NCBI GenBank assembly: GCA_902563095.1
Contig: CACEWA010000006.1
Span: 6,713-70,712, forward strand
Direction of reading: 5' to 3'
Length of the DNA stretch: 64,000 nt
Source: an uncultured Candidatus Poseidoniales archaeon
GTDB lineage: Archaea > Thermoplasmatota > Poseidoniia > Poseidoniales > Poseidoniaceae
Below, piece after piece: positions 8,125 through 32,211 of the stretch (position 1 is its first letter; every line of letters begins with the position of its first letter). Position numbers and translations under genes: made by a program. Below the pieces are notes generated by a model, which had not been told where the DNA came from, did not search any database, and saw only the letters and a program-made list of their open reading frames with translations.

Positions 8125-8150
8125 AGCACTGTCTATGACGACACCCCTGC

Positions 8151-8810: not shown

Positions 8811-8856
8811 AGCGAACGCTTGATAATGAGCACCTGCCCACATCGACCCGGAGGCG

Positions 8857-9417
8857 ATGAGCGTGAGTACTCATGATGACAAGGTAAAGCGTCTTCTAGA
8901 TGGTGAAATTGATGAGGCAGAAATTGCCGCAGACCCTGTTCTTTCAAGTCTTGCTGAGAGGATTTTTGGGCTCAATATTGAACCGATAGCGCCAACGAAA
9001 CCGAGCCAACAACCAGTTGGTCCTGAAGTTGAAGTTATTGCAGCAAAAACATCTCATGAACCTATGATTGAGATCATTCCTGGTGCTGCACCTGCGCCTT
9101 CAATGGCGCTACCAGATTTACCAGCCATACCTAAGGATGGTGCCGAAAATAAAAATGGCGGTATGCTTCTGAAGGTTTTCGGACTGACATCACTAATTGT
9201 CGCCGTAGCAAACATATTCGGATTGTTCGGATTCCTAAACTCGCAATGTACTGCTGCAAAGTGTACTGAAGAAGCAACTAGAATTAACTGGGCCGGTATT
9301 CACAATATCGGCAATGAACTCGGTTGGTCTATGCCATTTCCGGAAATGGGAATACCTGATTATGTTGCTGTGACTTGCAGCATACTAGTCTTAATTGTGG
9401 CATTCCTAAGGAAATAA
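8857..9417 (+). CDS. Hypothetical membrane protein (acidic/Pro-rich N-terminal part, two C-terminal TM helices)
   Basis: 186-aa ORF filling the tal-proS gap. It has hydrophobic segments LLKVFGLTSLIVAVANIFGLFGF and YVAVTCSILVLIVAFL. I recognise no family. Confidence 0.5.
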   Translation: MSVSTHDDKVKRLLDGEIDEAEIAADPVLSSLAERIFGLNIEPIAPTKPSQQPVGPEVEVIAAKTSHEPMIEIIPGAAPAPSMALPDLPAIPKDGAENKNGGMLLKVFGLTSLIVAVANIFGLFGFLNSQCTAAKCTEEATRINWAGIHNIGNELGWSMPFPEMGIPDYVAVTCSILVLIVAFLRK

Positions 9418-9456
9418 TGCGGCAATTTGATGAATAGAGCACATGGAGTGTTAATT

Positions 9457-10950: not shown

Positions 10951-12315
10951 TTACATTTCAAGTCCATCGAAATCCATTTCAGTATCGCGCATCATGCGCT
11001 TCATCTGTTTGTTCATCTTACGATTGCCGCTCATTCCCTTCATCATCTTACGAGAGCGATTCCACTGACCTATGAGTTCTCTAACGTCTTTTTCTTTGAC
11101 CCCAGAACCTCTAGCAATTCTTCGGATTCTGTCAGCCTTGATTTTAGCAGGCTCATCCTTTTCGTAGGTTGTCATCGAATCCATAATCACTTGATATCTA
11201 TCGAGATTAGCCTGCATAGCCTCTTTCTGATTCTTGCCCATAGCACCCATTCCGCCAAACATTCCACTTGGTAAGAATGAGAGTAACTTATCGATTGTTC
11301 CAACCTTGGACATCATCTCCATTTGTGAATACATATCGTTCAATGTGAATCTACCAGACATCATACGCTGAGTAATACGCATGGCTTCTTCTTCATCCAT
11401 GTCTTCGGGAGCTAGATCAATAAGGCCACGAATATCGCCCATTCCAAGAAGTCTAGAGATAAATCGATCAGACTCGAATTTCTCTAAATCTGCAACTTTT
11501 TCTCCAGTTCCAATATACATCACTGGAGCACCTGTAGTAGCAACAGCAGATAGAGCGCCACCACCCCTAGCAGTACCATCGAGTTTGGTAATTACAATGC
11601 CAGTTACACCTGCTAAGTCATGGAAATTTGCTGCAACTGGTCCGGCAGATTGTCCAACCTGTGCATCGATAACCAGGAATCTCTCATTAGCATTAGCAAC
11701 TTCAGAAATTTGTTCTAATTCAACGACTAGATCTTCGTCTAACTTGTGCCTACCCGCTGTATCAATGATTACTAAATCTGCTGCCGCATGTTGTTTTAGT
11801 CCATTTTTTACTATGTCAACAGCATTCTTGTTATCTGGTTCACCATATACTTCAACAGATGAGTCTTCTAATAATTGAGATAGTTGGTTGTAAGCACCTG
11901 GTCTGTGAACGTCAGCTTCGATGACTGCAACTCTTACACCATGACGCCTACGATACCATTCTGCCAATTTTGCAGTGGTAGTTGTTTTACCATTACCATA
12001 CAACCCAACCATAAGAATAGTCGATTGTTGCGGCCTTACTTCTCTAGGAGGTCCGAGTAATCGAACCAATTCAGTGTAGAGGATATTCATTGCATGAGTT
12101 TGCAATGTTACACCCGGGCGAGGCTCCTCATCCCTCATCCTTGCTTCTAATTTTTCAGTGATATCTTTGGTTTGACGAACGTTGAAATCTGCTTCCTGCA
12201 AAGCCCTTCGAAGTGAACGGAGCATCTCCTTTAATTCATCCTCATTCAACTTTCTACGACTCTTTAGAATTCCTAGCGCAGAGAAAATACCTCTGGACAG
12301 ACCTTCAAGTGCCAT
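10951..12315 (-). CDS. srp54: Signal recognition particle protein SRP54
   Basis: 454 aa. The GTPase motifs are GLYGNGKTTTTAKLA, DTAGRH and TKLDGTARGG, and the C-terminal M-domain is Met-rich (MMKGMSGNRKMNKQMKRMM). Confidence 0.95.
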   Translation of the reverse strand: MALEGLSRGIFSALGILKSRRKLNEDELKEMLRSLRRALQEADFNVRQTKDITEKLEARMRDEEPRPGVTLQTHAMNILYTELVRLLGPPREVRPQQSTILMVGLYGNGKTTTTAKLAEWYRRRHGVRVAVIEADVHRPGAYNQLSQLLEDSSVEVYGEPDNKNAVDIVKNGLKQHAAADLVIIDTAGRHKLDEDLVVELEQISEVANANERFLVIDAQVGQSAGPVAANFHDLAGVTGIVITKLDGTARGGGALSAVATTGAPVMYIGTGEKVADLEKFESDRFISRLLGMGDIRGLIDLAPEDMDEEEAMRITQRMMSGRFTLNDMYSQMEMMSKVGTIDKLLSFLPSGMFGGMGAMGKNQKEAMQANLDRYQVIMDSMTTYEKDEPAKIKADRIRRIARGSGVKEKDVRELIGQWNRSRKMMKGMSGNRKMNKQMKRMMRDTEMDFDGLEM

Positions 12316-12357: not shown

Positions 12358-13521
12358 TTATTCTTCGGGAAATGTCAATTTCAAAATATCATTCTCTAGT
12401 TTTGCCTTCACTTGACTTGCCTTTGCTGGTCTATCAAATGGGACTGGATGTTCACGAGAATTAATACCAACATAAACGACTCCTGCTTCACTTCTAAGCG
12501 AAAGGTCCTCTCTGACGATACCAGGGAGGTGCAACATTACATCATCACCATCTGACCAAGTACCTCGGTGTACTTCTAGACCTAATCCTATTGAAAACGG
12601 ACCTAGGCCATCAGAGATTGTTATTTCGCCATGCAATTCAGAATTTATGCTCCTCAATAAATCGAGACCATGAATATCAGAATCTTTCAGTTCGACTTCA
12701 TGAAGGTGTAAATCTGGCAATTCGCTTCTCAATTGGTCTACATTCTTCCTTTCATTGATGCGACGAGTTTGAATGAAATCGTTATCTAAATTTGGAGTCA
12801 TACGATTGATTACACATCCAGAAACTGGTAAATTAAATTCAGCCAGAGATTCATATGCTCTAAGTGTTTCATTAACACCCATTTTCTCAGGAATCGTAAC
12901 AAGAGTGAATCTAGTTACTTCCGGATTACAAAGAATCCGTCTAACATGCAGTACACGTCGACGGAATTTCTCTAACTCCTCGCGCATTTTCTCACCCTCT
13001 TTAGCTCCGAACATCAAAGCACGTATTCCCCCAGTTAATCGGTGCATTCGAATGATTTTTTCTGCCCATTTTTCAATTATTTCTGGTAACGCTAAAAATC
13101 GTAGAGTGTGACCAGTGGGCGCTGTATCGAAAACAATAACATCCCAATCAGGATTCTCTAAATGTTTCAACAATTCATCGAAAGCCATTGCTTCATCAAG
13201 CCCAGGTAGCACCATTTCTGAAGCGTTCAGTTCAGGGTCTTGACCACCCAACATAGGACCTAGACTCTCAGTAAGTTTAGGAATGTGGTCTGAAATCCGG
13301 GCTTCTGGATCCAATTCCAGGCCCCATAAACCTTCAACACCCTCAACAGGAGTGGGTTCAGGTCCTAACTGAACTCCTAAACTATCAGAAGTACTGTGAG
13401 CAGGATCACTACTTACCAATAGGACCTTCAAGCCCGAGTCTGCTAAACCTACGGCTGTAGAAGTAGATGTAGTTGTTTTTCCAACTCCACCCTTTCCTCC
13501 GAACAAGAGCAGGCGAGCCAT
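12358..13521 (-). CDS. ArsA/Get3-family ATPase with C-terminal HSP20-like (alpha-crystallin-type) domain
   Basis: 387 aa with the deviant Walker A GGKGGVGKTTTS, DTAPTGHTLR and PEKMGVNET. The C-terminal roughly 90 aa (..VMLHLPGIVREDLSLRSEAGVVYVGI..KAKLENDILKLTF) look like the ArsA-associated HSP20-like domain. Confidence 0.85.
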   Translation of the reverse strand: MARLLLFGGKGGVGKTTTSTSTAVGLADSGLKVLLVSSDPAHSTSDSLGVQLGPEPTPVEGVEGLWGLELDPEARISDHIPKLTESLGPMLGGQDPELNASEMVLPGLDEAMAFDELLKHLENPDWDVIVFDTAPTGHTLRFLALPEIIEKWAEKIIRMHRLTGGIRALMFGAKEGEKMREELEKFRRRVLHVRRILCNPEVTRFTLVTIPEKMGVNETLRAYESLAEFNLPVSGCVINRMTPNLDNDFIQTRRINERKNVDQLRSELPDLHLHEVELKDSDIHGLDLLRSINSELHGEITISDGLGPFSIGLGLEVHRGTWSDGDDVMLHLPGIVREDLSLRSEAGVVYVGINSREHPVPFDRPAKASQVKAKLENDILKLTFPEE

Positions 13522-22378: not shown

Positions 22379-22471
22379 TGCCAACAATTGATGTTATTGT
22401 ACATTAGTTAAAACCAAACATTCAAGACCTCGTTGCGCACGCTCCCAATCACGGATAGTGAGTTGATAATA

Positions 22472-25400
22472 ATGGCAAATATCTCATACCTAGAAAATCC
22501 ACTCGAAAGTGAGGATTTGTATGAGAAATTGTGTCAGCCTGTTCGTAATTGGTTCAAACAAAAATTTCCTGATTTTACAGAACCCCAAAAATTAGCAATT
22601 CCATCCATTATGAACAAGGACCATTTGTTACTTTGTTCTCCTACTGGATCCGGTAAAACTCTTACAGCATTTCTAACAATTATTGACGACTTAGTTCGTC
22701 ATGCCTTGGAAGGTACTCTGGAAGAGAGAGTATATTGCTTGTATATTTCACCAATCAAAGCATTAGCTAATGATATTCAAAAGAATCTAATTGGACCTCT
22801 TGAGGAAATCGAGAAAAATTACCTTCCAGATAGAGCTCAAGGTAAAATTAGAGTTGGACTACGTACCGGTGATACTCCACAATCAGAAAGGCAAAAAATG
22901 CTCAGAAAGCCACCCCACATACTTATCACAACTCCAGAAAGTATGGCGATTGCAATATCATCTCCTCGATTCCAACCAATTGTTTCTAATGTCGAATGGA
23001 TAATTATTGATGAAATGCATTCACTAGTTCCATCAAAACGAGGTGTACATCTTGCACTAACTATTTCCTTACTAGACACAATACTTGAACGTCCAGTTCA
23101 AAGAATTGGTATTTCAGCGACTATGGAACCTCTAGAAACTGTTGCTGAATACCTGGTGGCAAGTGATGATAGGGAAAGCAGGAATGAGAATCAATCTGTT
23201 AAAATTGCAAAAATTAGTGGTGCTAGGGAATTAGACTTGGACATACTTTTGTGTTCACCTAAATTTAGCGAACTTTCTGTAATGAAAGTTCTCGAAATGA
23301 ATGTCGAAATGGTTGCCGACCTAATTAGTGCACATACAACAACTCTAGTATTCGCTAATACGAGGAAAATGACTGAAACATTAGTCCAAAAGTTACGTCC
23401 ATTTTTGGGAGATTTGGTTGCTGGGCACCACGGTTCGATGGACAAGAGAATCAGGTTGGATGTAGAAAGAAAACTCAAATTGGGACACCTTAGGGCTGTA
23501 GTTACGTCTTCATCACTTGAAATGGGAATAGATATCGGTTCTGTAGATCTGGTGATTCAAATAGGCTCTCCTGGCGATATAGCAACTGCCCTACAGAGAA
23601 TCGGGAGGGCGGGGCACCATGTTGGAGGCATTCCACGCGCTCGATTCCTACCAACAAGTGTTGATGATTTAATCGAGTTAGCAGCACTACAATCTGCTAT
23701 TCAAACCGGTGACATGGATTTACTTGATTTTCCACAAAATTGTCTAGATGTACTTGCTCAATTCCTAATTGGTTTAGTCATCATTAATGAAAGAGATATT
23801 GATGAAGCGTTTGAAGTTGTAACTAGTACATGGTCATACAGAAACCTAGGATATGACGATTTTATTGAAGTACTTGATATGCTAGAAGAAGAAAGGCGTG
23901 TTTGGATTGATTGGGAAGATAATATCTATGGAAAACGTGGATATTCTAGAATGATATATTATACAAATATAGGTACAATAGCACCTGATAATTCATATCT
24001 TGTTTTCAATGCGGAAGGCAGTATATTAGGACAGTTATCATCATCCTTCGTCGCTAATTTACGAGGAGGAGATGTAATTTTACTAGGTGGTTCAACATAC
24101 CGAGTCACAAATATTCAAGGCACTAGAGTTAATGTAAATTCAGTCACTGGATACAGACCTACTGTTCCTTCTTGGAGCGGTGAAGCCAGGAGTAGGTCTA
24201 GGGAATTATCAAAAGCATTGCTCGATTTGATTGGGCACAGTGTTAATGCTCTTAGAAGGCAGAATGACCCTAGAGTTATTTTGCGAGATGTATACGGTTT
24301 AGGTGAAGGGGTTTCAAACACAATTGCTCGTCATTTAGAGGAGCACACATTGGACTCTTTCCAAGTACCAGACCCCAATAGATTGATCGTCGAACAAATC
24401 GTTTCTGGAGGTATGCCAACATACCTAATCACATCATGTCGTGGCAGAGGTTTCAATACCGCGCTAGGTTATTTCATGGCTGGTTTAGCCGAACAAGACG
24501 GTATTGCAGTATTGGAGTTGTCTTTTGATGAAAATGGACTATTGATTAAAACTAGTCAAGAAGTTGACCCGGGTAAAATGTATGAATATTTCCAATCTAA
24601 TGACCATATGGAAGTTATTGAGCGTTACATTGTGAACACGCAAATTTTCGCTAAGAGATTTAGAGAAATAGCCGGACGCTCGCTAATTATTCCTAAACGA
24701 ATAGGCGCAGAAGAAGTCAGTCCACAACAATTCCAGCAACGAGCTGATGCATTATTACAACGACATCGTTCAATCGAAGATTCACTGCTGATCAGAGAAG
24801 CCAAAGCCGAAATTATGTTTGGTGACATAGATATTATTTCACTGAATCAATTCTTAGAAGCGAGTAAGGAAAATATAGCAAGGATTGTTCATACTAAAGT
24901 CCCCGTACCATCGAGACTTGGAATGAGTCTTTACATGAGCACATTCGAGGATTTGCTTTCAATGAAAACAAGGGCTTTCCTTGTCAAAGATATTGACCCT
25001 GAAATCCTAAAACGACTCCTAGGAAACCGAAGTCTTGCTACAGAATTGAGCGATGAACAAATCGATGAATATTACTCTAGTAAAGTTCCGAAGCCAACTA
25101 ATTCAACCGAGCTCCTTAATCTAATGAGCAAAGGTGGAGGTTTGGATAGAAAATGGGAGAATCCACTATACGCATCCAAACTAAAGGGAATCGAACACAG
25201 CACAATAGAAGGATGGGTTCGAGAATTGGCCAAACAAGGCAAGATTACAAAATTACGCTCGACAGGAACAGCAGAACTGGATGACAAATGGTTCACGACT
25301 TATATGGCAGAGATTCACGGTACTTTGGGGAGAATTTCTGAAGCTGGCGGTAAAGAAATGGAAGATATTCGTGACCTTTACACCAAAGGTATCAGTTATG

Positions 25401-27757
25401 AAGTTGCGACTGAATTTGACGGCCTAAATGGAACCAAATGGGAAAAGCGCAAAATTACCGATCCTCATGAAGCATTAAGAGTGAAAATTATCGAAATGCT
25501 AGGTAGCGAAGGTCCTGCTAAAGGAGACCAGATCAATTCGCGATTACCATTCCCTCAGGGTCAGATTGATTCTATTTTGCATGAATTAGAAATTCGAAAT
25601 GTTATCTCAGTAGGATTCTATAGACAGACTGATGATGCAGAATATATTCTCAAGGTTGATGAGCATAAAATCACCGGCGGAGAAGAAGATGTTGTTGAAT
25701 ACCGATGGGTACAAAACATGGTTATGAAGAAATCATTCGAACAATATGGTGACGGTTTCACAGCATTCGACCAACACATATTATTCCAAAAGCAGCAAGA
25801 GATGCTATATCGTGTCGATGGTTTCCGATATGCCGATTGGAAAGATTTGCAACTAGATTCAGATGTTGTAATGGGAAGGTTATTGCATAATCGAATAGGA
25901 TATACTACGCGTAAGAATATTCCAATGCTGCTGGGATTGAAACCAGAGCCATGGCTAGGTGAAATGGAAAAGTTGATTCTCGAAAAAATTCCAATAGGTG
26001 AAAACTTGACGCGCCAGGAAATTCTTATGGATTTCCCAAAGGGTGAAGATCACAAATCTCTTCAAAGAGATCTAAAGAATGCAATCAGTAATTTGGAAAG
26101 GCAACTATGTTTGGTAAAACAATTCGAAGATGTGAGCGGTCGTAGAAGAAGATTGTCTTTGTTCCACAGAGTTATCGATGTCTATAAGCCAATGGATTTC
26201 GAAGATTCACTAGTTGAAGTCATCAAGAGAATGGGTCCAGTAAAGGCCTTCACTCTGAGATATTATGTCTCTAGAAGTGTTGAAGAATTAGCAATAGCAC
26301 TTCGAAATTTGGAGAATAAAGGAAGAATTGCAAAGATTATGGCATTGGTTCCAGAACCAGAGGCCTTCTATGTTCTTCCTGAAGAAGTTGCAAAACTGAG
26401 CACTCAAAGTAGAGAAGATAGAACATTACGTATTCTAACTCAATCTGACCCATATGTTTCTCGATTCATATGGGAAGTTCGCTCAGTTTTGGATAGAGGA
26501 TGGTACCTGCCAGTATTCAAAGGAGTTGACCCGATAGGCAAGGTATTGATGTTTAAGATAAACGATTATCTTGAAATCAAAGATATGCATATTCCATATG
26601 CTTACTTGGATGAATTCTGTGAAGCATTTGAAAAATTGTTGGACAACCACTCTGACCAACTAGTTGATGTTGCAGTATTGTCGCAATTTAACGGAATTCC
26701 TGTAACTGATTTAGAAGAGGACTCACGAATCGCTCTTGAAGGAATTGGTTTCAAATTAGCAGGAGAGAGAATGATTCGTGGAGGTATTGTAGATCCACAA
26801 CCGAGAGAGATTGCTGAAAGAGCTCTTTTCCATAGACATCACCTGCATCAAAATTCTCGTTTGGAAAATGAAATTCAGGCTCTTGAAAGTGTACAAGAAG
26901 TACGTGATGACTTTGGATTGCGTGGACGAGCAGAAGTCTATAGAGTCAGTTTGAAGAATATGGCAAGCGCCAACCAGTTACATCAAGGAATTAACCTCAG
27001 AGGACATCAAGTTTGGGCATCATATGACCACTTCTCTACATTACTAGCAATCCGTGGTGAAGAACCTAATGAGGAATTATTGGACATCCTTGAATTCTTC
27101 GAAAATCATAGTGACCCAAATCTGTTCATGGAAAGGCATGCAATGAAACGAGCTGCATTCAGGAAATTGATTCAGCCATTACTTCGTAGTGGCCACATGG
27201 TCCAAGATTACCGCGGTGGGTTCCGTTCGGTAGCACCTCGTAGAGGCTTAGACCCTGTTATTCTGCGGAGGGAATACCTACGCAGACTAGTTTCAGATTA
27301 CCCAGTTATCACACTAAAACAATTCACAAGATTGGCTGGAACTCCATTTAAGCCTGAAGAATTGAAAGCGATTTTAACCGAATTTGAAGAAGATTCAACG
27401 CTGATTAAAGGATTCCTAATTCAAGACTTGCACGAGGTTTGCTGGGGTAAGAAGGACTTACTTGATGAAGCTAAGAACGTCCCTCCTATTCGGGATTTTG
27501 TCATTCCTCCTTCAGACCCAATAGCCCCTTATTTCGCAGATGTGCTAAAACAAAAATTCGGCTTTGGTAGCGCATACCTAGTTTTCAGGAATGCAGAACC
27601 TGTGGCCGCATTCAAAGCAAATACTCGCGACAAAATAATCGATGTTACCGATTACGAAGGCTCAGAAAAGGGCTGGAGGATTGTGAAAGAATTCGCTTGG
27701 GAACATCAAATGCCACTAAAAACCGAACTTCGTATCGGTGGAAAACGAATGAAGTAA
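22472..27757 (+). CDS. lhr: Lhr-family superfamily-2 helicase with an unusually long C-terminal extension (about 1761 aa from the ATG at 22472; the ORF opens at the TTG at 22433)
   Basis: Helicase motifs are CSPTGSGKTLTAF (I), IIIDEMHSL (II), SSSLEMGIDIG and QRIGRAGH (VI). Lhr-type downstream domains run to about residue 900. The frame then stays open for about 860 more codons, which contain two YcaQ/AlkZ-like signature segments. Confidence 0.85.
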   Translation: MANISYLENPLESEDLYEKLCQPVRNWFKQKFPDFTEPQKLAIPSIMNKDHLLLCSPTGSGKTLTAFLTIIDDLVRHALEGTLEERVYCLYISPIKALANDIQKNLIGPLEEIEKNYLPDRAQGKIRVGLRTGDTPQSERQKMLRKPPHILITTPESMAIAISSPRFQPIVSNVEWIIIDEMHSLVPSKRGVHLALTISLLDTILERPVQRIGISATMEPLETVAEYLVASDDRESRNENQSVKIAKISGARELDLDILLCSPKFSELSVMKVLEMNVEMVADLISAHTTTLVFANTRKMTETLVQKLRPFLGDLVAGHHGSMDKRIRLDVERKLKLGHLRAVVTSSSLEMGIDIGSVDLVIQIGSPGDIATALQRIGRAGHHVGGIPRARFLPTSVDDLIELAALQSAIQTGDMDLLDFPQNCLDVLAQFLIGLVIINERDIDEAFEVVTSTWSYRNLGYDDFIEVLDMLEEERRVWIDWEDNIYGKRGYSRMIYYTNIGTIAPDNSYLVFNAEGSILGQLSSSFVANLRGGDVILLGGSTYRVTNIQGTRVNVNSVTGYRPTVPSWSGEARSRSRELSKALLDLIGHSVNALRRQNDPRVILRDVYGLGEGVSNTIARHLEEHTLDSFQVPDPNRLIVEQIVSGGMPTYLITSCRGRGFNTALGYFMAGLAEQDGIAVLELSFDENGLLIKTSQEVDPGKMYEYFQSNDHMEVIERYIVNTQIFAKRFREIAGRSLIIPKRIGAEEVSPQQFQQRADALLQRHRSIEDSLLIREAKAEIMFGDIDIISLNQFLEASKENIARIVHTKVPVPSRLGMSLYMSTFEDLLSMKTRAFLVKDIDPEILKRLLGNRSLATELSDEQIDEYYSSKVPKPTNSTELLNLMSKGGGLDRKWENPLYASKLKGIEHSTIEGWVRELAKQGKITKLRSTGTAELDDKWFTTYMAEIHGTLGRISEAGGKEMEDIRDLYTKGISYEVATEFDGLNGTKWEKRKITDPHEALRVKIIEMLGSEGPAKGDQINSRLPFPQGQIDSILHELEIRNVISVGFYRQTDDAEYILKVDEHKITGGEEDVVEYRWVQNMVMKKSFEQYGDGFTAFDQHILFQKQQEMLYRVDGFRYADWKDLQLDSDVVMGRLLHNRIGYTTRKNIPMLLGLKPEPWLGEMEKLILEKIPIGENLTRQEILMDFPKGEDHKSLQRDLKNAISNLERQLCLVKQFEDVSGRRRRLSLFHRVIDVYKPMDFEDSLVEVIKRMGPVKAFTLRYYVSRSVEELAIALRNLENKGRIAKIMALVPEPEAFYVLPEEVAKLSTQSREDRTLRILTQSDPYVSRFIWEVRSVLDRGWYLPVFKGVDPIGKVLMFKINDYLEIKDMHIPYAYLDEFCEAFEKLLDNHSDQLVDVAVLSQFNGIPVTDLEEDSRIALEGIGFKLAGERMIRGGIVDPQPREIAERALFHRHHLHQNSRLENEIQALESVQEVRDDFGLRGRAEVYRVSLKNMASANQLHQGINLRGHQVWASYDHFSTLLAIRGEEPNEELLDILEFFENHSDPNLFMERHAMKRAAFRKLIQPLLRSGHMVQDYRGGFRSVAPRRGLDPVILRREYLRRLVSDYPVITLKQFTRLAGTPFKPEELKAILTEFEEDSTLIKGFLIQDLHEVCWGKKDLLDEAKNVPPIRDFVIPPSDPIAPYFADVLKQKFGFGSAYLVFRNAEPVAAFKANTRDKIIDVTDYEGSEKGWRIVKEFAWEHQMPLKTELRIGGKRMK

Positions 27758-27799
27758 ATTACATAACGCAGTTTTGTGTGTTTATTGAGACTATATTCA

Positions 27800-30700
27800 A
27801 TGGGCAATTCTAGTGTTAGATTAAATAACAAGTTTCTTTGTCAGATAATTGTGAACCGCAAGGCTATACTCCTTACTGCCCTCATGCTATTGGTTTCTGC
27901 AAGCCCGTTTGTTACAACATCATCAGCAAATGAAGTACAGGACATTGAAGTTCTAGATACTGCAGTTTATCCTGGAAACAATCACACCTACCATTTACTT
28001 TCTGCTTCTTCATGGAGTGATGCTGCATCGGTTGCCAGAAGCTTAGGCGGATTTCTAGTTACCATAGATGATGCAGAGGAAGATCAGTGGATTTTTGATA
28101 CATTTGCAGTAGATAACGACACAACTAGACATCTGTGGATTGGATTGTCTGATTATCAAGACGAGGGAGATTACCGCTGGCATGATGGAACGCCATTCAC
28201 TTACAGAAACTGGGGAGATGGTCAACCTGGTAGCGGTGATGATGAAGATTATGTCCATATTACTGGAACTAATATGGGGTCGATAGAACCTGCATCTTGG
28301 AATGACTTAGAGGATGACCCTCAGTATTTCCCTGTATACGGTGTTGTCGAGATTGGAGATGGTGCTGATTATGCACTTCGATTTGATGGAGATGATGACC
28401 ACATCATTATTGATGAAGACTTCCCAGATTGGGGAAATACCTTAGAAATTGAAGCATGGGTAAATGTTGCTGATACTGATGGAATACAATTTGTCACAAT
28501 GTTCGGTGATTATGGCTGGGGACTTTACCTAAATGATGGCTATCTAGCTTACTCCAACGAATACTCCCTCTCTAGAAACCCAACATCCAATGTTTCGATT
28601 CAAGAAAATATTTGGACACATATCAAGGTGGTTGTAAACACAGAAACTGGCGGTGAATTCTTCATTGACAACTCTTCTGCAGGACTTATTGATGTTAATG
28701 ACTCACAAATTCCTTCAGGCGACTTCGGCTCAAACGATTGTTTCCAATCAGGCGAAGAATGTGATGAACTATTTATTGGAAGAATGGGTGCTGGTTGTGA
28801 TTGCAACTATTTCCGTGGAATGATGGATGATGTTCGCATTGGCAATTCACTGAACGAATCGTTATGGATGTTTACTGAAGGCGAGGGAGAATCTACAGAA
28901 GATTCAGAAGGTTTGATTGGTATAATTCACGGTGCTGCATGGGTAATGCCTGATGGCACTATAATTGCACAGGCCTTTGAATTAGAGAATGGTGAATACT
29001 ATGATGGATTCAATGCAAATGCAGGAGATACACTCCTATTCTTCATGGATATACCTGAAAATACTCAGTTTGCATCGCTAAACATGTACTCATGGGATTT
29101 CGAATTTGAAGAAGAATATGAAGAAATCGAATACGAAATCTATCTCGCAAAAGATCGTATTCCTTCAGCATGGGACCATGATTATGAAGTTGAAACATAC
29201 TATGGATTGTATGTATACGAATACTTCGAGTGGCCTGAAGAAGGCACTTATTGGATCACTATTTCTTCAAACTATGATATCGAAGAACTAGAGGTGAATG
29301 CGTACTGGGAAGAAGCACCAGAACCACCCGAACTCGATGAAATGACCGAACTGAACGACGGCATTGCTGTCACAGGTCAGAGAATTACTCGAGATAGCGG
29401 AAAATCACTTTATTTCTATGTAGAACTTGAAGATGAATTAGCTGAATTACGTGTAAAAACTTGGGGAGGACCTGGTGATTGTGAATTGCACATAGCATTA
29501 GATGCTCTTCCATACACTGATGATTGGGGATGGATAGAAGATGGATGGTTTGAAGAGAGTGGTGGAAGTAATGGTCGCCAAATTGGTGGTCAGCAAACTT
29601 CAGACCATTCATATAATTCTGGAAATGATGAGACCGTGCAGATTTTCGATGCTCAACCAGGCATATATTACATCATGATGACATCTTACACTGGATGTCG
29701 AGATGTAACAATTCAGGCGGACTTCACATATGCACCAAATAACGTGGACCCAGAATCTGCAATTGAATTGACTGACGGCATCTCCTATGGTCCATTAAGT
29801 GGTTTCGAAGGACTTGACCAATTCTTCTACATCGATGTACCAGTTGGAACAGAAAGATTGGAAGTTGATTTGAACAATGGTGATGGAGAAGCTAAATTGA
29901 TGATGCGCCTCGACCAATACCCCACATGGTCCACTTATGACAAGCACTCAAATGCCCCTGGTGCAGGTGACAAACTTGGTTTCAATGATCCAACTCCTGG
30001 ACGTTGGTATATCCTCATAGGCAGTGAGGAATATTACAGTCGAATCGATATTACAGCATCATTTGAAGATAGATATGTTTGGACATATGATGGTGAACCA
30101 ATCCAATTATTCAATGAGGAAGAAATCGGTGGTATGAGTGCACCTGAAGATGAAGAATTGTATTTCTTCATAGACTTAGAAGATTCAGCTGCTATGGATT
30201 TGACTATCAAGACATGGGGCGGAGAAGGCGACCTTGGTTTATCTGCTGAAACTGAAGAAATCGAGTGGGATGATTTCGAAGAACGCCCAATGGGTAGACA
30301 ATTTGGTGAAACTCAATTTGAATCAGATTGGAGCGGTGCAGATGAAGAGATTTACATCTTCTTTGCTAGTGGAAGAATTGACATCACGATTTACGCTAAC
30401 ACTGAGATTGAAGATATTTCAATAGTTGCGAAGTGGGATGAAATCGACGAACCAGGACCTGGACCCGGTCCTGAACCCGGACCCGAACCTCCAATCGGTG
30501 ACGACATACTTTCTTGTGACGAGTATGTTAAGGTGATTTTCGAAGAACTAGATCTGAATGGAGATGGAGATATCTCCAGTGATGAATCGTTCGATGGTGA
30601 TGATAACGAATTCGATGAGATTGATATTAACAAAGATGGTGTAATCGACAAAACTGAAGCAATCGTTGCGATATGCACCTGTGAAAATGAACTATATGTT

Positions 30701-31261
30701 ACACTAGAGCAAATCAACACAGATGATAGAGGCGAATTTTCTATTGAATTCCTGTCGAGTATTGCATGGAAAAATGAATACGATTTCTTCGAAATGGATT
30801 CAAACAATAATATGCGAGTAGACTATGATGAAGTCGAGGAATATGGAGAAAATTGTGTAACAACCTATGACCCATTGGATAGGGATGGAGATGGAACTCC
30901 TAACGACAAAGATGCATTCCCCGATGACCCTAGTGAAGATAAGGATACAGATGGTGATGGAGTCGGTGATAATGCAGACATTATCGCTTCAGTGGATAAT
31001 GATGTTATCTGGGTTTCTGCCAGTATTCTTGGGCTTATCCTAGCTACATTCTTGGGAATCATGTTTGTTAGATCACGTAGAGGACCAGAGTATGCTTGGG
31101 AAGAATATCAGAAAGACAGGATGTCTGAATCCATGCTTGCTGGCATGGTTAATTCAGGAGACATGCCTCCTTCACAGGAATCTGTACCCCCGGCACTAGA
31201 CTTAGGGCCGCCTGTAGAAAATGTTCCTGAAGATATGACTGTGTCAGATCTCTACGACTGA
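27800..31261 (+). CDS. Giant acidic mosaic surface protein, in order: signal peptide, C-type lectin-like domain, LamG/ConA-like domain, PPC-like beta-sandwich repeats, PG/PE linker, EF-hand pair, TSP3-like Ca-binding repeats, TM anchor, cytoplasmic tail
   Basis: Signal-like KAILLTALMLLVSASPFVTTSSA. C-type lectin strings GGFLVTIDDAEEDQWI, HLWIGLSDYQDEGDYRWHDGTPFTYRNW and WNDLEDD. LamG-like LRFDGDDDHIIID...YFRGMMDDVRIGN. Repeated KTWGG(P/E)GD motifs. EF-hand loops DLNGDGDISSDE and DINKDGVIDKTE. TSP3-like DRDGDGTPNDKDAFPDDPSEDKDTDGDGVGDNAD. TM segment VIWVSASILGLILATFLGIMFV followed by RSRR and an about 80-aa tail. Confidence 0.8.
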   Translation: MGNSSVRLNNKFLCQIIVNRKAILLTALMLLVSASPFVTTSSANEVQDIEVLDTAVYPGNNHTYHLLSASSWSDAASVARSLGGFLVTIDDAEEDQWIFDTFAVDNDTTRHLWIGLSDYQDEGDYRWHDGTPFTYRNWGDGQPGSGDDEDYVHITGTNMGSIEPASWNDLEDDPQYFPVYGVVEIGDGADYALRFDGDDDHIIIDEDFPDWGNTLEIEAWVNVADTDGIQFVTMFGDYGWGLYLNDGYLAYSNEYSLSRNPTSNVSIQENIWTHIKVVVNTETGGEFFIDNSSAGLIDVNDSQIPSGDFGSNDCFQSGEECDELFIGRMGAGCDCNYFRGMMDDVRIGNSLNESLWMFTEGEGESTEDSEGLIGIIHGAAWVMPDGTIIAQAFELENGEYYDGFNANAGDTLLFFMDIPENTQFASLNMYSWDFEFEEEYEEIEYEIYLAKDRIPSAWDHDYEVETYYGLYVYEYFEWPEEGTYWITISSNYDIEELEVNAYWEEAPEPPELDEMTELNDGIAVTGQRITRDSGKSLYFYVELEDELAELRVKTWGGPGDCELHIALDALPYTDDWGWIEDGWFEESGGSNGRQIGGQQTSDHSYNSGNDETVQIFDAQPGIYYIMMTSYTGCRDVTIQADFTYAPNNVDPESAIELTDGISYGPLSGFEGLDQFFYIDVPVGTERLEVDLNNGDGEAKLMMRLDQYPTWSTYDKHSNAPGAGDKLGFNDPTPGRWYILIGSEEYYSRIDITASFEDRYVWTYDGEPIQLFNEEEIGGMSAPEDEELYFFIDLEDSAAMDLTIKTWGGEGDLGLSAETEEIEWDDFEERPMGRQFGETQFESDWSGADEEIYIFFASGRIDITIYANTEIEDISIVAKWDEIDEPGPGPGPEPGPEPPIGDDILSCDEYVKVIFEELDLNGDGDISSDESFDGDDNEFDEIDINKDGVIDKTEAIVAICTCENELYVTLEQINTDDRGEFSIEFLSSIAWKNEYDFFEMDSNNNMRVDYDEVEEYGENCVTTYDPLDRDGDGTPNDKDAFPDDPSEDKDTDGDGVGDNADIIASVDNDVIWVSASILGLILATFLGIMFVRSRRGPEYAWEEYQKDRMSESMLAGMVNSGDMPPSQESVPPALDLGPPVENVPEDMTVSDLYD
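30452..30493 (+). repeat. Low-complexity Pro-Gly/Pro-Glu linker coding repeat (PGPGPGPEPGPEPP) inside the surface protein gene
   Basis: The sequence cca gga cct gga ccc ggt cct gaa ccc gga ccc gaa cct cca reads in frame. It separates the PPC-like repeats from the EF-hand region. Confidence 0.6.
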
Positions 31262-32211
31262 GTACGCTTTTTCCCAGGCTTGAGTCCAAGCGGACGCATG
31301 AGCGAAAGAACATGTCTGTGCATTTGTGGCAACATTTCGAATAGAACAAGAGCTAGCAGGAACATTGCACCCAATGATACGAACCTTGCTGCATAAGCGT
31401 GTCCAAATTCAAAGATTGTAAGATTCATCCAACGCCAATCTGGGTATCCCATTTGAAGCCAAATTAACCCTGCATTTCTGAATAGATTTAGTATGTGAAT
31501 TAACGATAAAGCGATGAATAGTGCCCTAACACGCTTTCTCCAATCAATTTCTAGAACGGATATTGCACCGACAAAGATAATCATAGATTGTATCGCTGTA
31601 CAAGCCAATACGAAATTGATGTAAATCGGCTCACCATTTACCAACAATTCCGTGTGAAATGAAAATTCTGACATTTCTTCAGTCAAAAACCAGCGATTTC
31701 CTTCCCAATCATTCCAATTGATTGAAGCGCTATTAACGGGATTGGCATAAGTTTCTCCCAAAGTAACATCTGCTCCGCCGGCAAAGGAAAGTAGAGCTGC
31801 AGATTGCCAAGCTACGAACCAAATTGCCAATATGTTCAGCATTGGAATATGTGCGATCATTAGGTAAGGTAATCCAGCAACAGCGACTGTACCTCTAAAC
31901 CAGCGTAATGCCTTAGCGTTTTTTGGCTCTGTAACTTGCTTTTCCCATAACGCAATGGCACAGGCACCTGGTAGTGTTAGTGCACTCATAACGGTCAGAA
32001 CAACATCATCATGCGCAAGGTAAAATCCAATGTCATTAAAGAAATAAAAACCGGTCATCACCCAACCAAATGGTGCTAAGGATTCAAATTTGCCAGAGCG
32101 ACTTTTCCAGGTGATAAATAGAATCAACAATCCCACCGCACCTAGGACGGTTGCGGTTGACCTGTCGACCAGATAGTCACCTGCCATGCTACGCCAAGAA
32201 TGGTGTTTCAT
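31252..32211 (-). CDS. Polytopic membrane protein, possible exosortase/archaeosortase-family transpeptidase
   Basis: 319 aa with about 7-8 TM. Spaced candidate catalytic-type motifs in family order: Cys in INFVLACTAIQSMIIFVG, Arg in ILNLFRNAGLIWL, His in IFEFGHAYAARF. The assignment rests on pattern memory only. Confidence 0.4.
   Translation of the reverse strand: MKHHSWRSMAGDYLVDRSTATVLGAVGLLILFITWKSRSGKFESLAPFGWVMTGFYFFNDIGFYLAHDDVVLTVMSALTLPGACAIALWEKQVTEPKNAKALRWFRGTVAVAGLPYLMIAHIPMLNILAIWFVAWQSAALLSFAGGADVTLGETYANPVNSASINWNDWEGNRWFLTEEMSEFSFHTELLVNGEPIYINFVLACTAIQSMIIFVGAISVLEIDWRKRVRALFIALSLIHILNLFRNAGLIWLQMGYPDWRWMNLTIFEFGHAYAARFVSLGAMFLLALVLFEMLPQMHRHVLSLMRPLGLKPGKKRTQS

What the first reader, a model, noticed from the sequence alone, without database searches (positions are those of the whole stretch)
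27800..31261. 1153-aa mosaic surface protein combining eukaryote-style adhesion modules with a TM anchor and cytoplasmic tail
Reading the translation N to C, I see the following elements. A signal peptide comes first. A C-type lectin-like domain follows, with WIGL and WND signatures in HLWIGLSDYQDEGDYRWHDGTPFTYRNW and WNDLEDD. Next is a LamG/ConA-like domain (LRFDGDDDHIIID ... YFRGMMDDVRIGN). At least three beta-sandwich repeats follow, with pre-peptidase-C-terminal-like signatures: LRVKTWGGPGDCELHIAL, LEVDLNNGDGEAKLMMRL, LTIKTWGGEGDLGLSA. Then comes a PGPGPGPEPGPEPP linker. Two canonical 12-residue EF-hand loops, DLNGDGDISSDE and DINKDGVIDKTE, lie at 30551..30658. Thrombospondin-type-3-like Asp repeats (DRDGDGTPNDKDAFPDDPSEDKDTDGDGVGDNAD) follow. 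The protein ends with one TM helix and an about 80-aa cytoplasmic tail. The protein is extremely acidic. C-type lectin plus EF-hand plus TSP3 modules on one archaeal type-I membrane protein suggest Ca-dependent glycan or particle binding. The cytoplasmic tail could signal or tether.
Basis: partly seen in the sequence, partly recalled or inferred. Interest (0 to 1): 0.6.

Follow-up and report, generated by a model that had tools for sequence, protein, structure and literature searches.

The report
Conserved calcium-studded surface protein of Poseidoniales
The gene encodes a large, very acidic cell-surface protein that nearly every sampled species of the abundant ocean archaea Poseidoniales (Marine Group II) keeps in the same form and genomic place, so it looks like a core envelope or ligand-binding protein, not a variable mosaic adhesin.

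Summary
Pfam or PDB searches confirm a C-type lectin-like domain, a LamG/ConA-like domain, PPC-type beta-sandwiches and EF-hands. One C-terminal membrane helix and extreme acidity (pI 4.05) also hold.

Corrections:
- The likely start is GTG 27851, giving 1136 aa instead of 1153.
- There are four PPC-like sandwiches, not three.
- The EF region is a calmodulin-like four-EF-hand domain with three conserved loops and four invariant cysteines.
- The TSP3 call holds only at motif level (Pfam E = 0.27).
- The cytoplasmic tail is 63 aa, not about 80.
- The lectin domain has no cysteines and reads QPG where sugar-binding lectins read EPN or QPD.

The "mosaic, hypervariable" idea is refuted. Full-length orthologues (36-99% identity) with one architecture occur in both Poseidoniales families. 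They almost always lie between an Lhr helicase and a convergent archaeosortase A gene. The protein diverges about as slowly as its housekeeping neighbours, and it is transcribed in marine metatranscriptomes.

Best reading: a Sec-exported type-I surface protein with a Ca2+-rigidified stalk, a distal lectin/LamG head and a conserved, disordered cytoplasmic tail. Ligand and partner are unknown. It is not a canonical PGF-CTERM archaeosortase substrate. Moderate interest.

The parts
27820..27827 (+). TATA-like box (TTAAATAA) about 27 nt upstream of the probable GTG start
   Evidence: Read from the sequence. An A/T-rich box lies 24-32 nt upstream of the proximal start codon in most of the 70-odd orthologous loci inspected by eye. 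The function is inferred.
27851..31261 (+). Probable true coding sequence (1136 aa plus stop). The longer readings from GTG 27776 or ATG 27800 add 17-25 N-terminal codons that are probably promoter DNA.
   Evidence: ORF. The GTG lies at codon 18. Distant orthologues begin at the aligned position. The upstream box is conserved.
27851..27931 (+). Sec-type signal peptide, MNRK / AILLTALMLLV / SASPFVTTSSA, with predicted cleavage before NE (after residue 44 in ATG-27800 numbering)
   Evidence: Hydropathy. The n-h-c layout and an SSA-type c-region end are kept in most orthologues. No signal-peptide predictor was available, so the cleavage site is inferred.
27947..28357 (+). C-type lectin-like domain (residues 50-186). 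WIGL and WND are invariant. QPG replaces EPN/QPD. There are no cysteines.
   Evidence: Pfam Lectin_C 44-48 bits. PDB profile and single-sequence hits to the mannose receptor, DC-SIGN, PLA2R and DEC-205. Invariant residues. AF2 is low-confidence for residues 107-193.
28367..28870 (+). LamG / ConA-like jelly-roll (residues 190-357), with an insert carrying four invariant cysteines (C314, C321, C333, C335) and the family's most conserved peptide, RMGAGCDC
   Evidence: Pfam Laminin_G_3 32.6 bits. Foldseek hits to neurexin LNS, laminin LG4-5 and agrin LG. pLDDT 70-90. Invariant columns.
28913..29314 (+).
   Evidence: hhalign against repeat 4 gives probability 98%, and against repeat 3 gives 90.7%. 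All-beta with pLDDT 70-85.
29333..29737 (+). PPC-like beta-sandwich 2 (residues 512-646), with a variable low-confidence insert at 574-598
   Evidence: Pfam PPC weak, 18.5 bits. hhalign against repeat 4 gives 98.5%, and against repeat 3 gives 97.1%. AF2 model.
29747..30070 (+). PPC-like beta-sandwich 3 (residues 650-757), the canonical PPC match
   Evidence: Pfam PPC 37.9 bits against a cut-off of 25.9. Foldseek hit to the ColG collagen-binding domains.
30077..30445 (+). PPC-like beta-sandwich 4 (residues 760-882)
   Evidence: hhalign against repeats 1, 2 and 3 gives 98%, 98.5% and 93%. AF2 model.
30446..30499 (+). Pro/Gly/Glu-rich linker (residues 883-900, PGPGPGPEPGPEPP)
   Evidence: Read from the sequence. 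pLDDT is below 50.
30506..30856 (+). Extracellular calmodulin-like four-EF-hand domain (residues 903-1019). Loops EF1 (30551..30586), EF2 (30623..30658) and EF4 (30797..30832) are conserved, and EF3 is degenerate. Four cysteines are invariant (906, 959, 961, 1019).
   Evidence: Pfam EF-hand_1 35 bits. PDB hits to GCAP1 and SCaMC-1. Alignment A2. AF2 mean pLDDT 78 for the whole 172-residue model, and about 85-92 over most of the EF helices. Foldseek matches calmodulin and troponin C over about 130 columns (probability about 1, E about 2e-3).
30869..30985 (+). Thrombospondin-type-3-like Asp-rich Ca-binding repeats (residues 1024-1062, about 1.5-2 units)
   Evidence: Nearly invariant DxDGDG / DPxE / DxDGDGxGDN columns. 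Pfam TSP_3 E = 0.27 and thrombospondin-2 E = 0.21 are not significant. The stretch is 65-68% identical to repeats of proteins that score 134-249 bits for TSP_3.
30986..31012 (+). Conserved juxtamembrane motif, [AP]S[VI]xND[ILVM][IVL][WY] (residues 1063-1071). N1067 is invariant in alignment A1.
   Evidence: The meaning is unknown. It is not a PGF motif.
31004..31069 (+). Single transmembrane helix (residues 1069-1090), followed by RSRR
   Evidence: Kyte-Doolittle maximum 2.37. AF2 helix at 1067-1092. Present in all complete orthologues that were read.
31070..31258 (+). Cytoplasmic tail (63 aa), predicted disordered, with conserved short motifs: W1100, SExML, PPALDLG and C-terminal VSDLYD
   Evidence: pLDDT is about 33. 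Motif conservation is shown. Most orthologues at 44-50% identity carry a longer tail (103-136 aa) ending ...DGxExIEYPxGSGxxWxR. No Pfam match.
31252..32211 (-). Neighbouring archaeosortase A gene, convergent, with 3' ends overlapping by 10 nt. This is context; a functional link was not shown.
   Evidence: TIGR04125 94.6 bits against a cut-off of 75. C204, R245 and H271 are invariant in 67 sequences. It lies downstream on the opposite strand in 73 of 80 species loci, directly in about 66.

Best explanation
This is a core, single-pass (type I) cell-surface protein of Poseidoniales.

Shown:
- A conserved ORF with an N-terminal signal-peptide-like segment.
- An ectodomain of about 1025 residues built in this order: C-type lectin-like domain, LamG jelly-roll, four PPC-type beta-sandwiches, Pro/Gly linker, four-EF-hand domain, TSP3-like Asp repeats.
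- One membrane helix with basic residues after it, then a conserved but disordered tail.
- The same architecture and genomic position in the species representatives sampled from both families of the order.
- Transcription in the sea.

Inferred mechanism:
- The protein is exported through Sec and cleaved after ...SSA.
- It stands on the membrane as a stalk. The membrane-proximal TSP3 repeats and the cysteine-stapled EF-hand domain would be permanently loaded with seawater Ca2+ (about 10 mM). They would therefore act as rigidifying structural elements, not as sensors.
- The four sandwiches act as spacers and hold the lectin/LamG head some tens of nanometres out.
- The head binds a carbohydrate or glycoprotein ligand. 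That ligand could be the cell's own glycocalyx or envelope glycans, or algal or particle polymers.
- The tail's short conserved motifs dock an unknown cytoplasmic partner, tethering or reporting the surface contact.
For: ORF, composition and hydropathy.

Domain matches above curated cut-offs: Lectin_C, Laminin_G_3, PPC and EF-hand_1. PDB sequence matches. Four homologous sandwiches. AF2 gives pLDDT 70-90 for LamG, the sandwiches and the EF domain. Foldseek matches neurexin, laminin and agrin LG domains, the ColG collagen-binding domain, and calmodulin and troponin C.

Conservation: 331 relatives were found, and the best-scoring ones are full-length. Only about 10 clusters at 50% identity are full-length. 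In the species-representative genomes, 193 stretches encode a relative, and the best 80 are all Poseidoniales contigs. Synteny holds in 73 of 80 loci. The membrane helix, juxtamembrane motif and tail motifs are present in every complete orthologue read.

Invariant residues: cysteines occur only in the predicted ectodomain of the mature protein. The EF loop Asp and Glu residues are invariant.

Transcription: metatranscriptome contigs cover the gene at depth 5-14 in run X1, against 7-27 for aEF-2 and 0-3 for the direct neighbours.

Literature: MGII genomes are known in general to carry Ca-dependent adhesion-domain and "thrombospondin" genes (PMC4511931, PMC6461757).
Against: - No ligand, partner or localisation has been measured.
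- The lectin domain lacks the canonical disulfides and has QPG in place of EPN/QPD, so classical Ca-dependent sugar binding may be lost.
- AF2 confidence for the second half of the lectin domain is below 50.
- Strong purifying selection and strict single-locus synteny are unusual for environmental adhesins. They fit a structural envelope role as well or better.
- Signal-peptide cleavage and topology rest on hydropathy and the positive-inside rule only.
- Contig depth is a poor measure of expression, and the runs were picked using this gene's own sequence.
Confidence: 0.55

Rival explanations
1. The protein is the main structural envelope protein of Poseidoniales: an S-layer-like protomer or a glycocalyx organiser. 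The sandwiches and the Ca2+ sites would mediate lateral lattice contacts, the lectin/LamG head would bind neighbouring glycans, and the membrane helix would be the anchor. Adhesion to external particles would be secondary or absent.
For: - It is conserved order-wide in the species representatives sampled, with one locus in each of the 80 loci read, and it evolves at a housekeeping-like rate.
- It sits beside archaeosortase A and a GmhB-like phosphatase. One lineage also has a GmhA-like gene there. These are all envelope or glycan biogenesis functions.
- It is extremely acidic and rich in Ca sites, as haloarchaeal and other euryarchaeal S-layer glycoproteins are (my own knowledge).
- It is transcribed well above its neighbours, within 2-3 fold of aEF-2, in run X1.
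Against: - The ectodomain has only six N-glycosylation sequons, all in the head.
- Transcript coverage does not exceed that of aEF-2, whereas S-layer genes are usually among the very highest (weak measure).
- No match to any known S-layer family was found in Pfam, NCBIfam or PDB.
- Whether Poseidoniales have an S-layer at all is not known to me.
Confidence: 0.22
2. The protein is a dedicated, non-canonical substrate of the adjacent archaeosortase A. The invariant juxtamembrane motif ([AP]S[VI]xND..[WY]) plus the helix and the basic cluster would replace PGF-CTERM. ArtA would cleave there and lipid-anchor the ectodomain, leaving the helix and tail behind.
For: - The artA gene is convergent and overlaps the 3' end by 10 nt.
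- It lies downstream on the opposite strand in 73 of 80 species loci.
- In two species the surface gene is inverted in place and then lies 42 nt downstream of artA on the same strand.
- The ArtA Cys, Arg and His residues are invariant, so the enzyme presumably has a substrate.
- The motif-helix-basic layout is conserved.
- There is a precedent for an ArtA substrate whose sorting signal is not at the C terminus (review PMC6098224).
- No PGF-CTERM ORF is present in the 64-kb window.
Against: - There is no PGF motif and no hit to the PGF-CTERM model.
- A 63-136 aa tail with conserved motifs argues that the C terminus is kept and used.
- The whole neighbourhood (Lhr, HAD, TiaS) is equally syntenic, so adjacency carries little information.
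- In one clade, seen in 7 of 80 loci, roughly 1.5 kb separates the two genes. In L083, the one such locus read, that gap holds an Old-Yellow-Enzyme-like gene.
- Whole genomes could not be scanned for true PGF-CTERM proteins.
Confidence: 0.1
3. The protein is a membrane-bound hydrolase or its remnant, such as a peptidase or glycanase. The PPC domains would be the usual pre-peptidase C-terminal modules, and the LamG/ConA-like part a glucanase-type catalytic or binding module.
For: - PPC domains typically accompany secreted peptidases, and Laminin_G_3 belongs to the ConA-like lectin/glucanase superfamily (Pfam descriptions).
- MGII are known for extracellular peptidases (PMC6864105).
Against: - No catalytic domain was detected by Pfam, NCBIfam, PDB sequence search or Foldseek.
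- Every residue range is accounted for by binding-type or structural modules.
Confidence: 0.04

Closest known systems
Animal multi-CTLD and collectin-type C-type lectin receptors (mannose receptor, DEC-205, PLA2R, DC-SIGN)
   Same: The head domain matches their C-type lectin-like domains in sequence. WIGL and WND are kept, with whole-sequence E-values of about 1e-10 to 1e-12 for single-CRD chains. Both are type-I membrane proteins with a short cytoplasmic tail carrying linear motifs.
   Different: There is a single lectin domain with no disulfides, and QPG replaces EPN/QPD. The rest of the architecture (PPC sandwiches, EF-hand domain, TSP3 repeats) is unrelated. Sugar binding was not shown.
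Neurexin, laminin and agrin LG (LNS) domain proteins
   Same: A LamG jelly-roll sits in a long, Ca-dependent extracellular protein with a single membrane helix. Foldseek and Pfam Laminin_G_3 both match.
   Different: There is one LG domain only, with a four-cysteine insert specific to this family. No EGF modules are present.
Clostridial collagenase ColG collagen-binding domains and bacterial pre-peptidase C-terminal (PPC) domains
   Same: Four tandem sandwiches belong to the PPC family, and Foldseek matches the tandem ColG s3a-s3b domains.
   Different: No peptidase is attached. The domains are part of a membrane-anchored stalk, and their binding function is unknown.
Calmodulin and troponin C; SPARC-type extracellular EF-hands
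   Same: A four-helix-loop-helix domain with canonical 12-residue loops. Like SPARC (my own knowledge), it lies outside the cell and contains cysteines that could form disulfides.
   Different: It is embedded in an ectodomain. EF3 is degenerate. The EF1-EF2 spacing is short and variable (12-24 residues). Foldseek TM-scores are only 0.3-0.36.
Thrombospondin/COMP type-3 repeats and bacterial OmpA-associated TSP3 repeats; the "thrombospondin genes" reported in Poseidoniales (Rinke et al. 2019, PMC6461757)
   Same: The same DxDxDGxxDxxD...DPxE...DxDGDGxGDN Asp-rich motif is present. It is strongly similar to TSP_3-positive proteins from the genome and metagenome library.
   Different: Only about two units are present, below Pfam's threshold. 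The cysteines of eukaryotic T3 repeats are absent.
Haloferax volcanii S-layer glycoprotein and other ArtA / PGF-CTERM substrates
   Same: A large, acidic euryarchaeal surface protein with an N-terminal signal peptide and a C-terminal hydrophobic helix, encoded next to archaeosortase A.
   Different: There is no PGF motif and no match to the PGF-CTERM model. A long conserved tail follows the helix. The ectodomains share no sequence similarity.

Membership tests
C-type lectin-like domain (Pfam PF00059) | Sequence match above the curated threshold, including the WIGL and WND motifs | tested here: met
   The match scores 44.2-48.2 bits against a cut-off of 22.6. W113, G115, L116, W167, N168 and D169 are invariant. 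Matches to solved single-CRD chains have E-values of about 1e-10 to 1e-12.
C-type lectin-like domain (Pfam PF00059) | Two conserved disulfides (four cysteines) that stabilise the double-loop fold | tested here: not met
   There is no cysteine between residues 15 and 313.
Ca2+-dependent carbohydrate-recognition subtype of C-type lectins | An EPN or QPD triplet plus WND, forming Ca2+ site 2 | tested here: not met
   The triplet reads QPG. Q142 and P143 are invariant and G is the consensus residue. WND is present. Four of the five usual ligand positions could still be filled, so binding is not excluded.
C-type lectin-like domain (Pfam PF00059) | A confidently predicted or solved CTLD fold | tested here: inconclusive
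   AF2 pLDDT is below 50 for residues 107-193. No separate model of the domain was made.
LamG / ConA-like lectin-glucanase superfamily (PF13385) | Sequence match above threshold and a jelly-roll fold | tested here: met
   The isolated segment scores 32.6 bits against 27.6. The domain is precomputed in many orthologues. pLDDT is 70-90, with Foldseek hits to neurexin, laminin and agrin LG domains.
PPC, bacterial pre-peptidase C-terminal domain (PF04151) | Sequence match above threshold; tandem homologous beta-sandwiches | tested here: met
   The whole protein scores 48 bits, and repeat 3 scores 37.9 bits against 25.9. Five of the six pairwise comparisons among the four repeats give hhalign probabilities of 91-98.5%; repeat 1 against repeat 2 gives only 46%.
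PPC, bacterial pre-peptidase C-terminal domain (PF04151) | Association with a secreted peptidase catalytic domain | tested here: not met
   No peptidase or other catalytic domain was found in the protein.
EF-hand (PF00036 / PF13499) | Canonical 12-residue DxDxDG...E loops flanked by helices and arranged in pairs | tested here: met
   EF-hand_1 scores 35.2 bits against 25.4. Loops 918-929, 942-953 and 1000-1011 have invariant position-1 or position-5 Asp and position-12 Glu. AF2 shows four helix-loop-helix units. Foldseek matches calmodulin and troponin C. Ca2+ binding itself was not measured.
Thrombospondin type 3 repeat (PF02412) | Sequence match above the curated threshold | tested here: not met
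   The match scores 11.4 bits against 25, E = 0.27. Thrombospondin-2 gives E = 0.21.
Thrombospondin type 3 repeat (PF02412) | The Asp-rich DxDxDGxxDxxD / DxDGDGxGD motif, shared with bona fide TSP_3 proteins | tested here: met
   The motif columns are invariant. Residues 1021-1060 are 65-68% identical to repeats in P0128 and P0151, which score 249 and 134 bits for TSP_3.
Archaeosortase A substrate (PGF-CTERM, TIGR04126) | A PGF signature motif at the start of the C-terminal helix | tested here: not met
   The sequence before and in the helix is ASVDNDVIWVSAS. NCBIfam found no PGF-CTERM hit, either on the whole protein or on the isolated C-terminus.
Archaeosortase A substrate (PGF-CTERM, TIGR04126) | The tripartite signal lies at the extreme C terminus, with only a short basic cluster after the helix | tested here: not met
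   A tail of 51-136 aa follows the helix in all orthologues read.
Archaeosortase A substrate (PGF-CTERM, TIGR04126) | An archaeosortase A gene in the same genome | tested here: met
   TIGR04125 scores 94.6 bits against 75 in the adjacent gene. It is present in 75 of 80 loci. The catalytic-type Cys, Arg and His are invariant.
Archaeosortase A substrate (PGF-CTERM, TIGR04126) | ArtA-dependent C-terminal cleavage and lipid attachment | not testable with these tools
   This needs proteomics or heterologous expression.
Archaeal S-layer glycoprotein | It is the most abundant envelope protein, forms a 2-D lattice and is heavily glycosylated | tested here: inconclusive
   Transcript contig depth is 5-14 against 7-27 for aEF-2. 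Only six ectodomain sequons are present. Lattice formation cannot be tested here.

The most novel reading that the evidence does not exclude
The family could be the principal envelope-building protein of Poseidoniales and the physiological target of their conserved, catalytically intact archaeosortase A. It would be recognised through a new non-PGF juxtamembrane signal ([AP]S[VI]xND..[WY] - helix - basic cluster). The helix and tail fragment would be retained after cleavage and would carry lineage-specific cytoplasmic docking motifs. That would define a new sorting signal and would give the first molecular handle on the cell surface of the most abundant planktonic archaea of the surface ocean.
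Probability: 0.1. Interest if true: 0.7.

Novelty: new variant of a known kind. Interest (0 to 1): 0.42.

Why it matters
[quoted passage not shown] What their cell surface is made of, and how they contact particles, algae or viruses, is unknown.

This gene is a rare case of a large surface protein that is conserved with one architecture across both families of the order. One published dating puts that split at about 1.1 billion years (PMC10877094). That makes the protein a good candidate for several uses:
- an envelope marker;
- an antigen for cell sorting or enrichment;
- a possible virus receptor;
- an entry point for biochemical work, namely Ca2+ binding, glycan binding and tail partners.

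The finding also tempers the usual reading of "adhesion-domain genes" in MGII genomes as niche-specific adhesins. Finally, it raises a testable question: what does the conserved Poseidoniales archaeosortase A act on?

Tried and rejected
- **Full-length fold search.** Foldseek of the full-length AF2 model against PDB gave only generic tandem-sandwich matches (neuropilin, neurexin, SIDT1, Cry toxins). None had a shared overall architecture.
- **Tail search.** Searching the 63-aa tail against the 5.8-billion-protein set returned six short fragments only. I found no evidence that the tail occurs on other ectodomains, but the word-index search is weak for this query. Pfam found nothing in either tail type.
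- **Sorting signal.** NCBIfam on the juxtamembrane, helix and basic segment gave no sorting-signal model.
- **PGF-CTERM in the window.** A scan of the whole window for PGF-CTERM-like ORF ends and for the tail motifs found none outside this gene.
- **Literature.** No held paper combines Marine Group II with archaeosortase. The Haft et al. 2012 paper was not held. The only paper combining Poseidoniales and gene inversion concerns corA and is unrelated.
- **ArtA homologues.** The search returned only Poseidoniales sequences among the 120 listed. I therefore could not test whether more distant ArtA genes also sit next to large surface proteins.
- **Rejected: hypervariable or mosaic adhesin.** The architecture and synteny are constant.
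- **Rejected: tail-anchored protein.** The protein has an N-terminal signal peptide.
- **Rejected: antisense ORF 30391..30807 as a gene.** It is a Ser-rich mirror image of the acidic coding strand.
- **Rejected: hydrolase.** No catalytic domain was found.

Full report
**1. The observation**

An open reading frame runs from 27776 to 31261 on the + strand. The protein has pI 4.05, with 255 Asp+Glu against 50 Lys+Arg. It is the most acidic of the 30 large ORFs I compared in the window; those range from 7 to 18.6% D+E, against 22.1% here.

Only two hydrophobic segments exist. One is near the N terminus (residues 16-41). The other is at residues 1069-1090 and is followed by RSRR. The antisense ORF 30391..30807 is Ser-rich low complexity. 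It is the mirror image of the acidic coding strand, not a gene.

**2. Where the gene starts**

Codon 18 of the ATG-27800 reading is GTG (27851). It is followed by NRK, a hydrophobic core and SASPFVTTSSA|NE, which is a textbook Sec signal peptide. An A/T-rich TTAAATAA lies at 27820-27827, about 27 nt upstream, where archaeal TATA boxes sit.

More distant orthologues begin exactly at the aligned codon. In most of the 70-odd orthologous loci I inspected, an A/T-rich box lies 24-32 nt upstream of that proximal start. The "conserved" N-terminal extension VRLNNKF in close relatives is therefore most simply the promoter read as protein.

I conclude that the gene is probably 27851..31261 (1136 aa) with a leaderless or short-leader mRNA. 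This is an inference, because no 5'-end data were available. Residue numbers below keep the ATG-27800 numbering.

**3. Domain anatomy**

- **Whole-protein scan.** Pfam on the whole protein gives Lectin_C (residues 69-169, 44 bits, cut-off 22.6) and PPC (48 bits).
- **Isolated segments.** These add Laminin_G_3 (32.6 bits against 27.6) and EF-hand_1 (35.2 against 25.4). TSP_3 stays at E = 0.27. Residues 360-510, 755-885 and the tail get no family.
- **Lectin domain.** A profile of the family and the isolated domain sequence both hit solved animal C-type lectin domains: mannose receptor, DC-SIGN, PLA2R and DEC-205. Whole-sequence E-values for single-CRD chains are about 1e-9 to 1e-12.
- **Sandwiches.** The probability is 98% against repeat 4 and 91% against repeat 3. 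There are therefore four PPC-type repeats.
- **Full-length model.** The AF2 model has mean pLDDT 64.6. LamG, all four sandwiches and the EF region score 70-90. The second half of the lectin domain, the Pro/Gly linker and the tail score below 50. Foldseek with that model returns tandem jelly-roll and sandwich proteins: neuropilin, neurexin LNS, laminin LG4-5, agrin LG, the ColG collagen-binding domains and the SIDT1 ectodomain. This fits the domain calls but gives no shared overall architecture.

**4. The EF-hand region is a four-EF-hand domain**

The sub-alignment of residues 899-1070 (A2) shows three loops of the DxDxDG...E type with invariant key positions: 918-929, 942-953 and 1000-1011. 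A degenerate third unit lies between them, and four cysteines are invariant (906, 959, 961, 1019).

AF2 on this segment gives mean pLDDT 78 and four helix-loop-helix units with the short paired strands typical of EF pairs. Foldseek aligns about 130 columns to calmodulin, troponin C and the SCaMC regulatory domain. Probability is about 1, E is about 2e-3, and TM-scores are 0.3-0.36.

Because the domain lies between a signal peptide and the only membrane helix, it should be extracellular. The cysteines are then likely disulfides. That is an inference.

**5. TSP3-like stretch**

Residues 1024-1062 carry nearly invariant DxDGDG, DPxE and DxDGDGxGDN columns. The match to Pfam TSP_3 and to thrombospondin-2 is not significant.

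The same stretch is 65-68% identical to repeats in very large library proteins. Two of these that I scanned score 249 and 134 bits for TSP_3. So the motif-level assignment is reasonable, but formal family membership was not met.

**6. Lectin domain caveats**

WIGL and WND are invariant. However, the domain contains no cysteine at all, and the position that reads EPN or QPD in sugar-binding C-type lectins reads QPG. Q142 and P143 are invariant. Classical Ca-dependent sugar binding is therefore not established, although four of the five usual ligand positions remain.

**7. Distribution**

The 5.8-billion-protein search gave 331 relatives. The best 120 are nearly all full-length orthologues (46-99% identity, 93-100% coverage) plus some fragments. 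Where sources named them, the names were Euryarchaeota, Poseidoniaceae or Thalassarchaeaceae, with the labels "hypothetical", "lectin-like" or "pre-peptidase C-terminal domain-containing".

The exhaustive search of 50% representatives found only about ten full-length clusters, down to 36-38% identity. Everything else matched single modules.

In one genome per GTDB species, 193 stretches encode a relative. The best 80 are all on Poseidoniales-type contigs, and two of those sit in bins labelled as bacteria. I found no orthologue with a different domain order.

**8. Synteny**

In the window the order is Lhr-type helicase (+), this gene (+), archaeosortase A (-, 3' ends overlapping by 10 nt), GmhB-like HAD phosphatase (+), TiaS (+). 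The same order holds in loci whose protein is 36-56% identical.

Among the 80 species loci:
- ArtA lies downstream on the opposite strand in 73, directly in about 66.
- Five loci end too early to tell.
- In two (L048, L072) the surface gene alone is inverted, so ArtA lies 42 nt upstream on the same strand.
- In seven of the 73, roughly 1.5 kb separates the surface gene from ArtA. In L083, the one I read, that gap holds an Old-Yellow-Enzyme-like gene.

Between the two families the surface protein keeps 44-50% identity. ArtA and HAD keep about 50%, TiaS about 45% and Lhr about 75%. The protein therefore evolves like a housekeeping gene. This refutes the mosaic or hypervariable idea. It also means that adjacency to ArtA is no better conserved than adjacency to unrelated neighbours.

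**9. C-terminal end**

Every complete orthologue read has one helix preceded by [AP]S[VI]xND[ILVM][IVL][WY] and followed by a basic cluster. The tails come in two kinds.
- Close relatives of the window protein have 51-66 aa ending ...PPALDLGP..VPEDMxVSDLYD.
- Most of the more divergent orthologues (44-50% identity) have 103-136 aa ending ...LMGM..DGxExIEYPxGSGxxWxR....

Both kinds share a membrane-proximal Trp and an SExML-like helix. The tail is predicted disordered and has no Pfam match. Conserved short motifs in a disordered tail suggest docking of a cytoplasmic partner. This is an inference.

**10. Relation to archaeosortase A**

The neighbour scores 94.6 bits on TIGR04125 (cut-off 75). 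It keeps invariant C204, R245 and H271 in 67 Poseidoniales sequences. NCBI and JGI name it archaeosortase A.

The surface protein does not look like a canonical substrate. It has no PGF motif and no hit to the PGF-CTERM model, and a long tail follows the helix.

A substrate with a non-terminal signal is known in Haloferax, according to the review PMC6098224. A non-canonical relationship therefore cannot be excluded, and I rate it at about 0.1. I could not scan whole Poseidoniales genomes for true PGF-CTERM proteins. The 64-kb window has none.

**11. Expression**

Sixteen marine metatranscriptome runs were returned; seven of them hold words of the gene. In run X1, contigs cover 28.0-31.0 kb at depth 5-14. 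Depth over Lhr, ArtA, HAD and TiaS is 0-3, and over aEF-2 in the same window it is 7-27.

Contig depth is a poor measure, and the runs were chosen using this gene's sequence. I take only this much from it: the gene is transcribed in the sea, clearly above its neighbours and not above aEF-2.

**12. Interpretation**

Shown: a conserved, transcribed gene for a protein with a signal-peptide-like N terminus, a long modular ectodomain made of binding-type and Ca-binding modules, one membrane helix and a conserved tail.

Inferred:
- Sec export and cleavage.
- N-out, C-in topology, from the positive-inside rule and from cysteines occurring only in the predicted ectodomain of the mature protein.
- Permanent Ca2+ loading of the EF and TSP3 modules in seawater, so they act as rigid structural elements.
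- The four sandwiches act as a spacer.
- The lectin/LamG head acts as the ligand-binding tip.
- The tail acts as a docking site.

The main open question is whether the ligand is external (particles, algal polymers) or the cell's own envelope glycans. An external ligand would make the protein an adhesin, and self glycans would make it a structural envelope protein. The strict conservation leans somewhat towards a core envelope role. The domain types lean towards ligand binding.

**13. Comparison with what is known**

Earlier genome papers noted adhesion-domain, Ca-dependent adhesin and "thrombospondin" genes in MGII in general terms (PMC4511931, PMC6461757). I found no description of this family, its architecture, its order-wide conservation or its position next to ArtA.

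It is built entirely from known modules, so it is not a new kind of system. The fixed combination is a distinct, uncharacterised variant: a cysteine-free CTLD, LamG, four PPC sandwiches, an extracellular four-EF-hand domain, TSP3 repeats, a helix and a tail carrying conserved motifs.

**14. Verdict**

- Observation: partly confirmed, with corrections.
- Novelty: new variant of a known kind.
- Interest: moderate, 0.42. The interest lies mainly in the protein being a conserved surface handle on an abundant, uncultured archaeal order, and in the open question of its relation to archaeosortase A.

Noticed in passing
window 27800-27853: The first 17 codons of the ATG-27800 reading probably are not translated. 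They contain a TATA-like TTAAATAA (27820-27827), and the likely start is GTG 27851. In close relatives this promoter DNA shows up as a "conserved" peptide, VRLNNKF.
   Followed up: yes
window 31252-32211 (-): This is an archaeosortase A gene (TIGR04125, 94.6 bits) with invariant Cys204, Arg245 and His271. It converges on the surface-protein gene and overlaps its 3' end by 10 nt. No PGF-CTERM substrate is encoded in the 64-kb window, so the substrate of the Poseidoniales ArtA is unidentified here.
   Followed up: partly
L048 and L072 (match 6001-9618 and 6001-9426): In two species the surface-protein gene alone is inverted in place between Lhr and ArtA. ArtA then lies upstream on the same strand, with a 42-nt gap in L048.
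   Followed up: partly
L083 9730-10818 (-); similar gaps in L057, L077, L079, L080, L085, L086: In L083, a 362-aa NADH:flavin oxidoreductase (Old Yellow Enzyme)-like ORF lies between the surface-protein gene and ArtA. I recognised it by eye and did not scan it. The other six loci show a gap of similar size, which I did not read. Adjacency to ArtA is therefore not obligatory.
   Followed up: partly
L006 10844-11428 (+): The most divergent lineage has an extra SIS_2 gene, which I read as GmhA-like. It lies between ArtA and the HAD phosphatase gene whose window orthologue matches GmhB-type models. This hints at a heptose or glycan-precursor pair next to the envelope genes.
   Followed up: no
L047 and L085: Contigs carrying this archaeal locus sit in MAGs labelled Salipiger bermudensis and Verrucomicrobiales bacterium. 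They are probably mis-binned contigs in public assemblies.
   Followed up: no
window 30391-30807 (-): A 138-aa antisense ORF inside the gene is Ser-rich low complexity. It is an artefact of reading the reverse complement of GAx-rich acidic codons.
   Followed up: yes
window 22433-27757 (+); L001 2664-7948: The upstream Lhr-type helicase is unusually long (1774 aa; orthologues show a weak AlkZ-like match). In L001 it is called as two genes of 1469 and 292 aa.
   Followed up: no
window 28739-28807 (residues 314-336): The LamG domain carries an insert with four invariant cysteines (C314, C321, C333, C335) around the family's most conserved peptide, RMGAGCDC. It could be a disulfide knot or a metal site. 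AF2 confidence is low there.
   Followed up: no
window 1-64000: Other genes in the window: aEF-2 (48457-50664), SRP54 (10951-12315, -), a Get3/ArsA-like ATPase (12358-13521, -), two OPT oligopeptide transporter genes (4200-6293 and 62443-63894, -), a P-type cation ATPase (1300-4098, -), TrkA/TrkH, a split transketolase, a transglutaminase-like protein and a NUDIX-polyprenyl synthetase fusion (51113-52858, -).
   Followed up: partly
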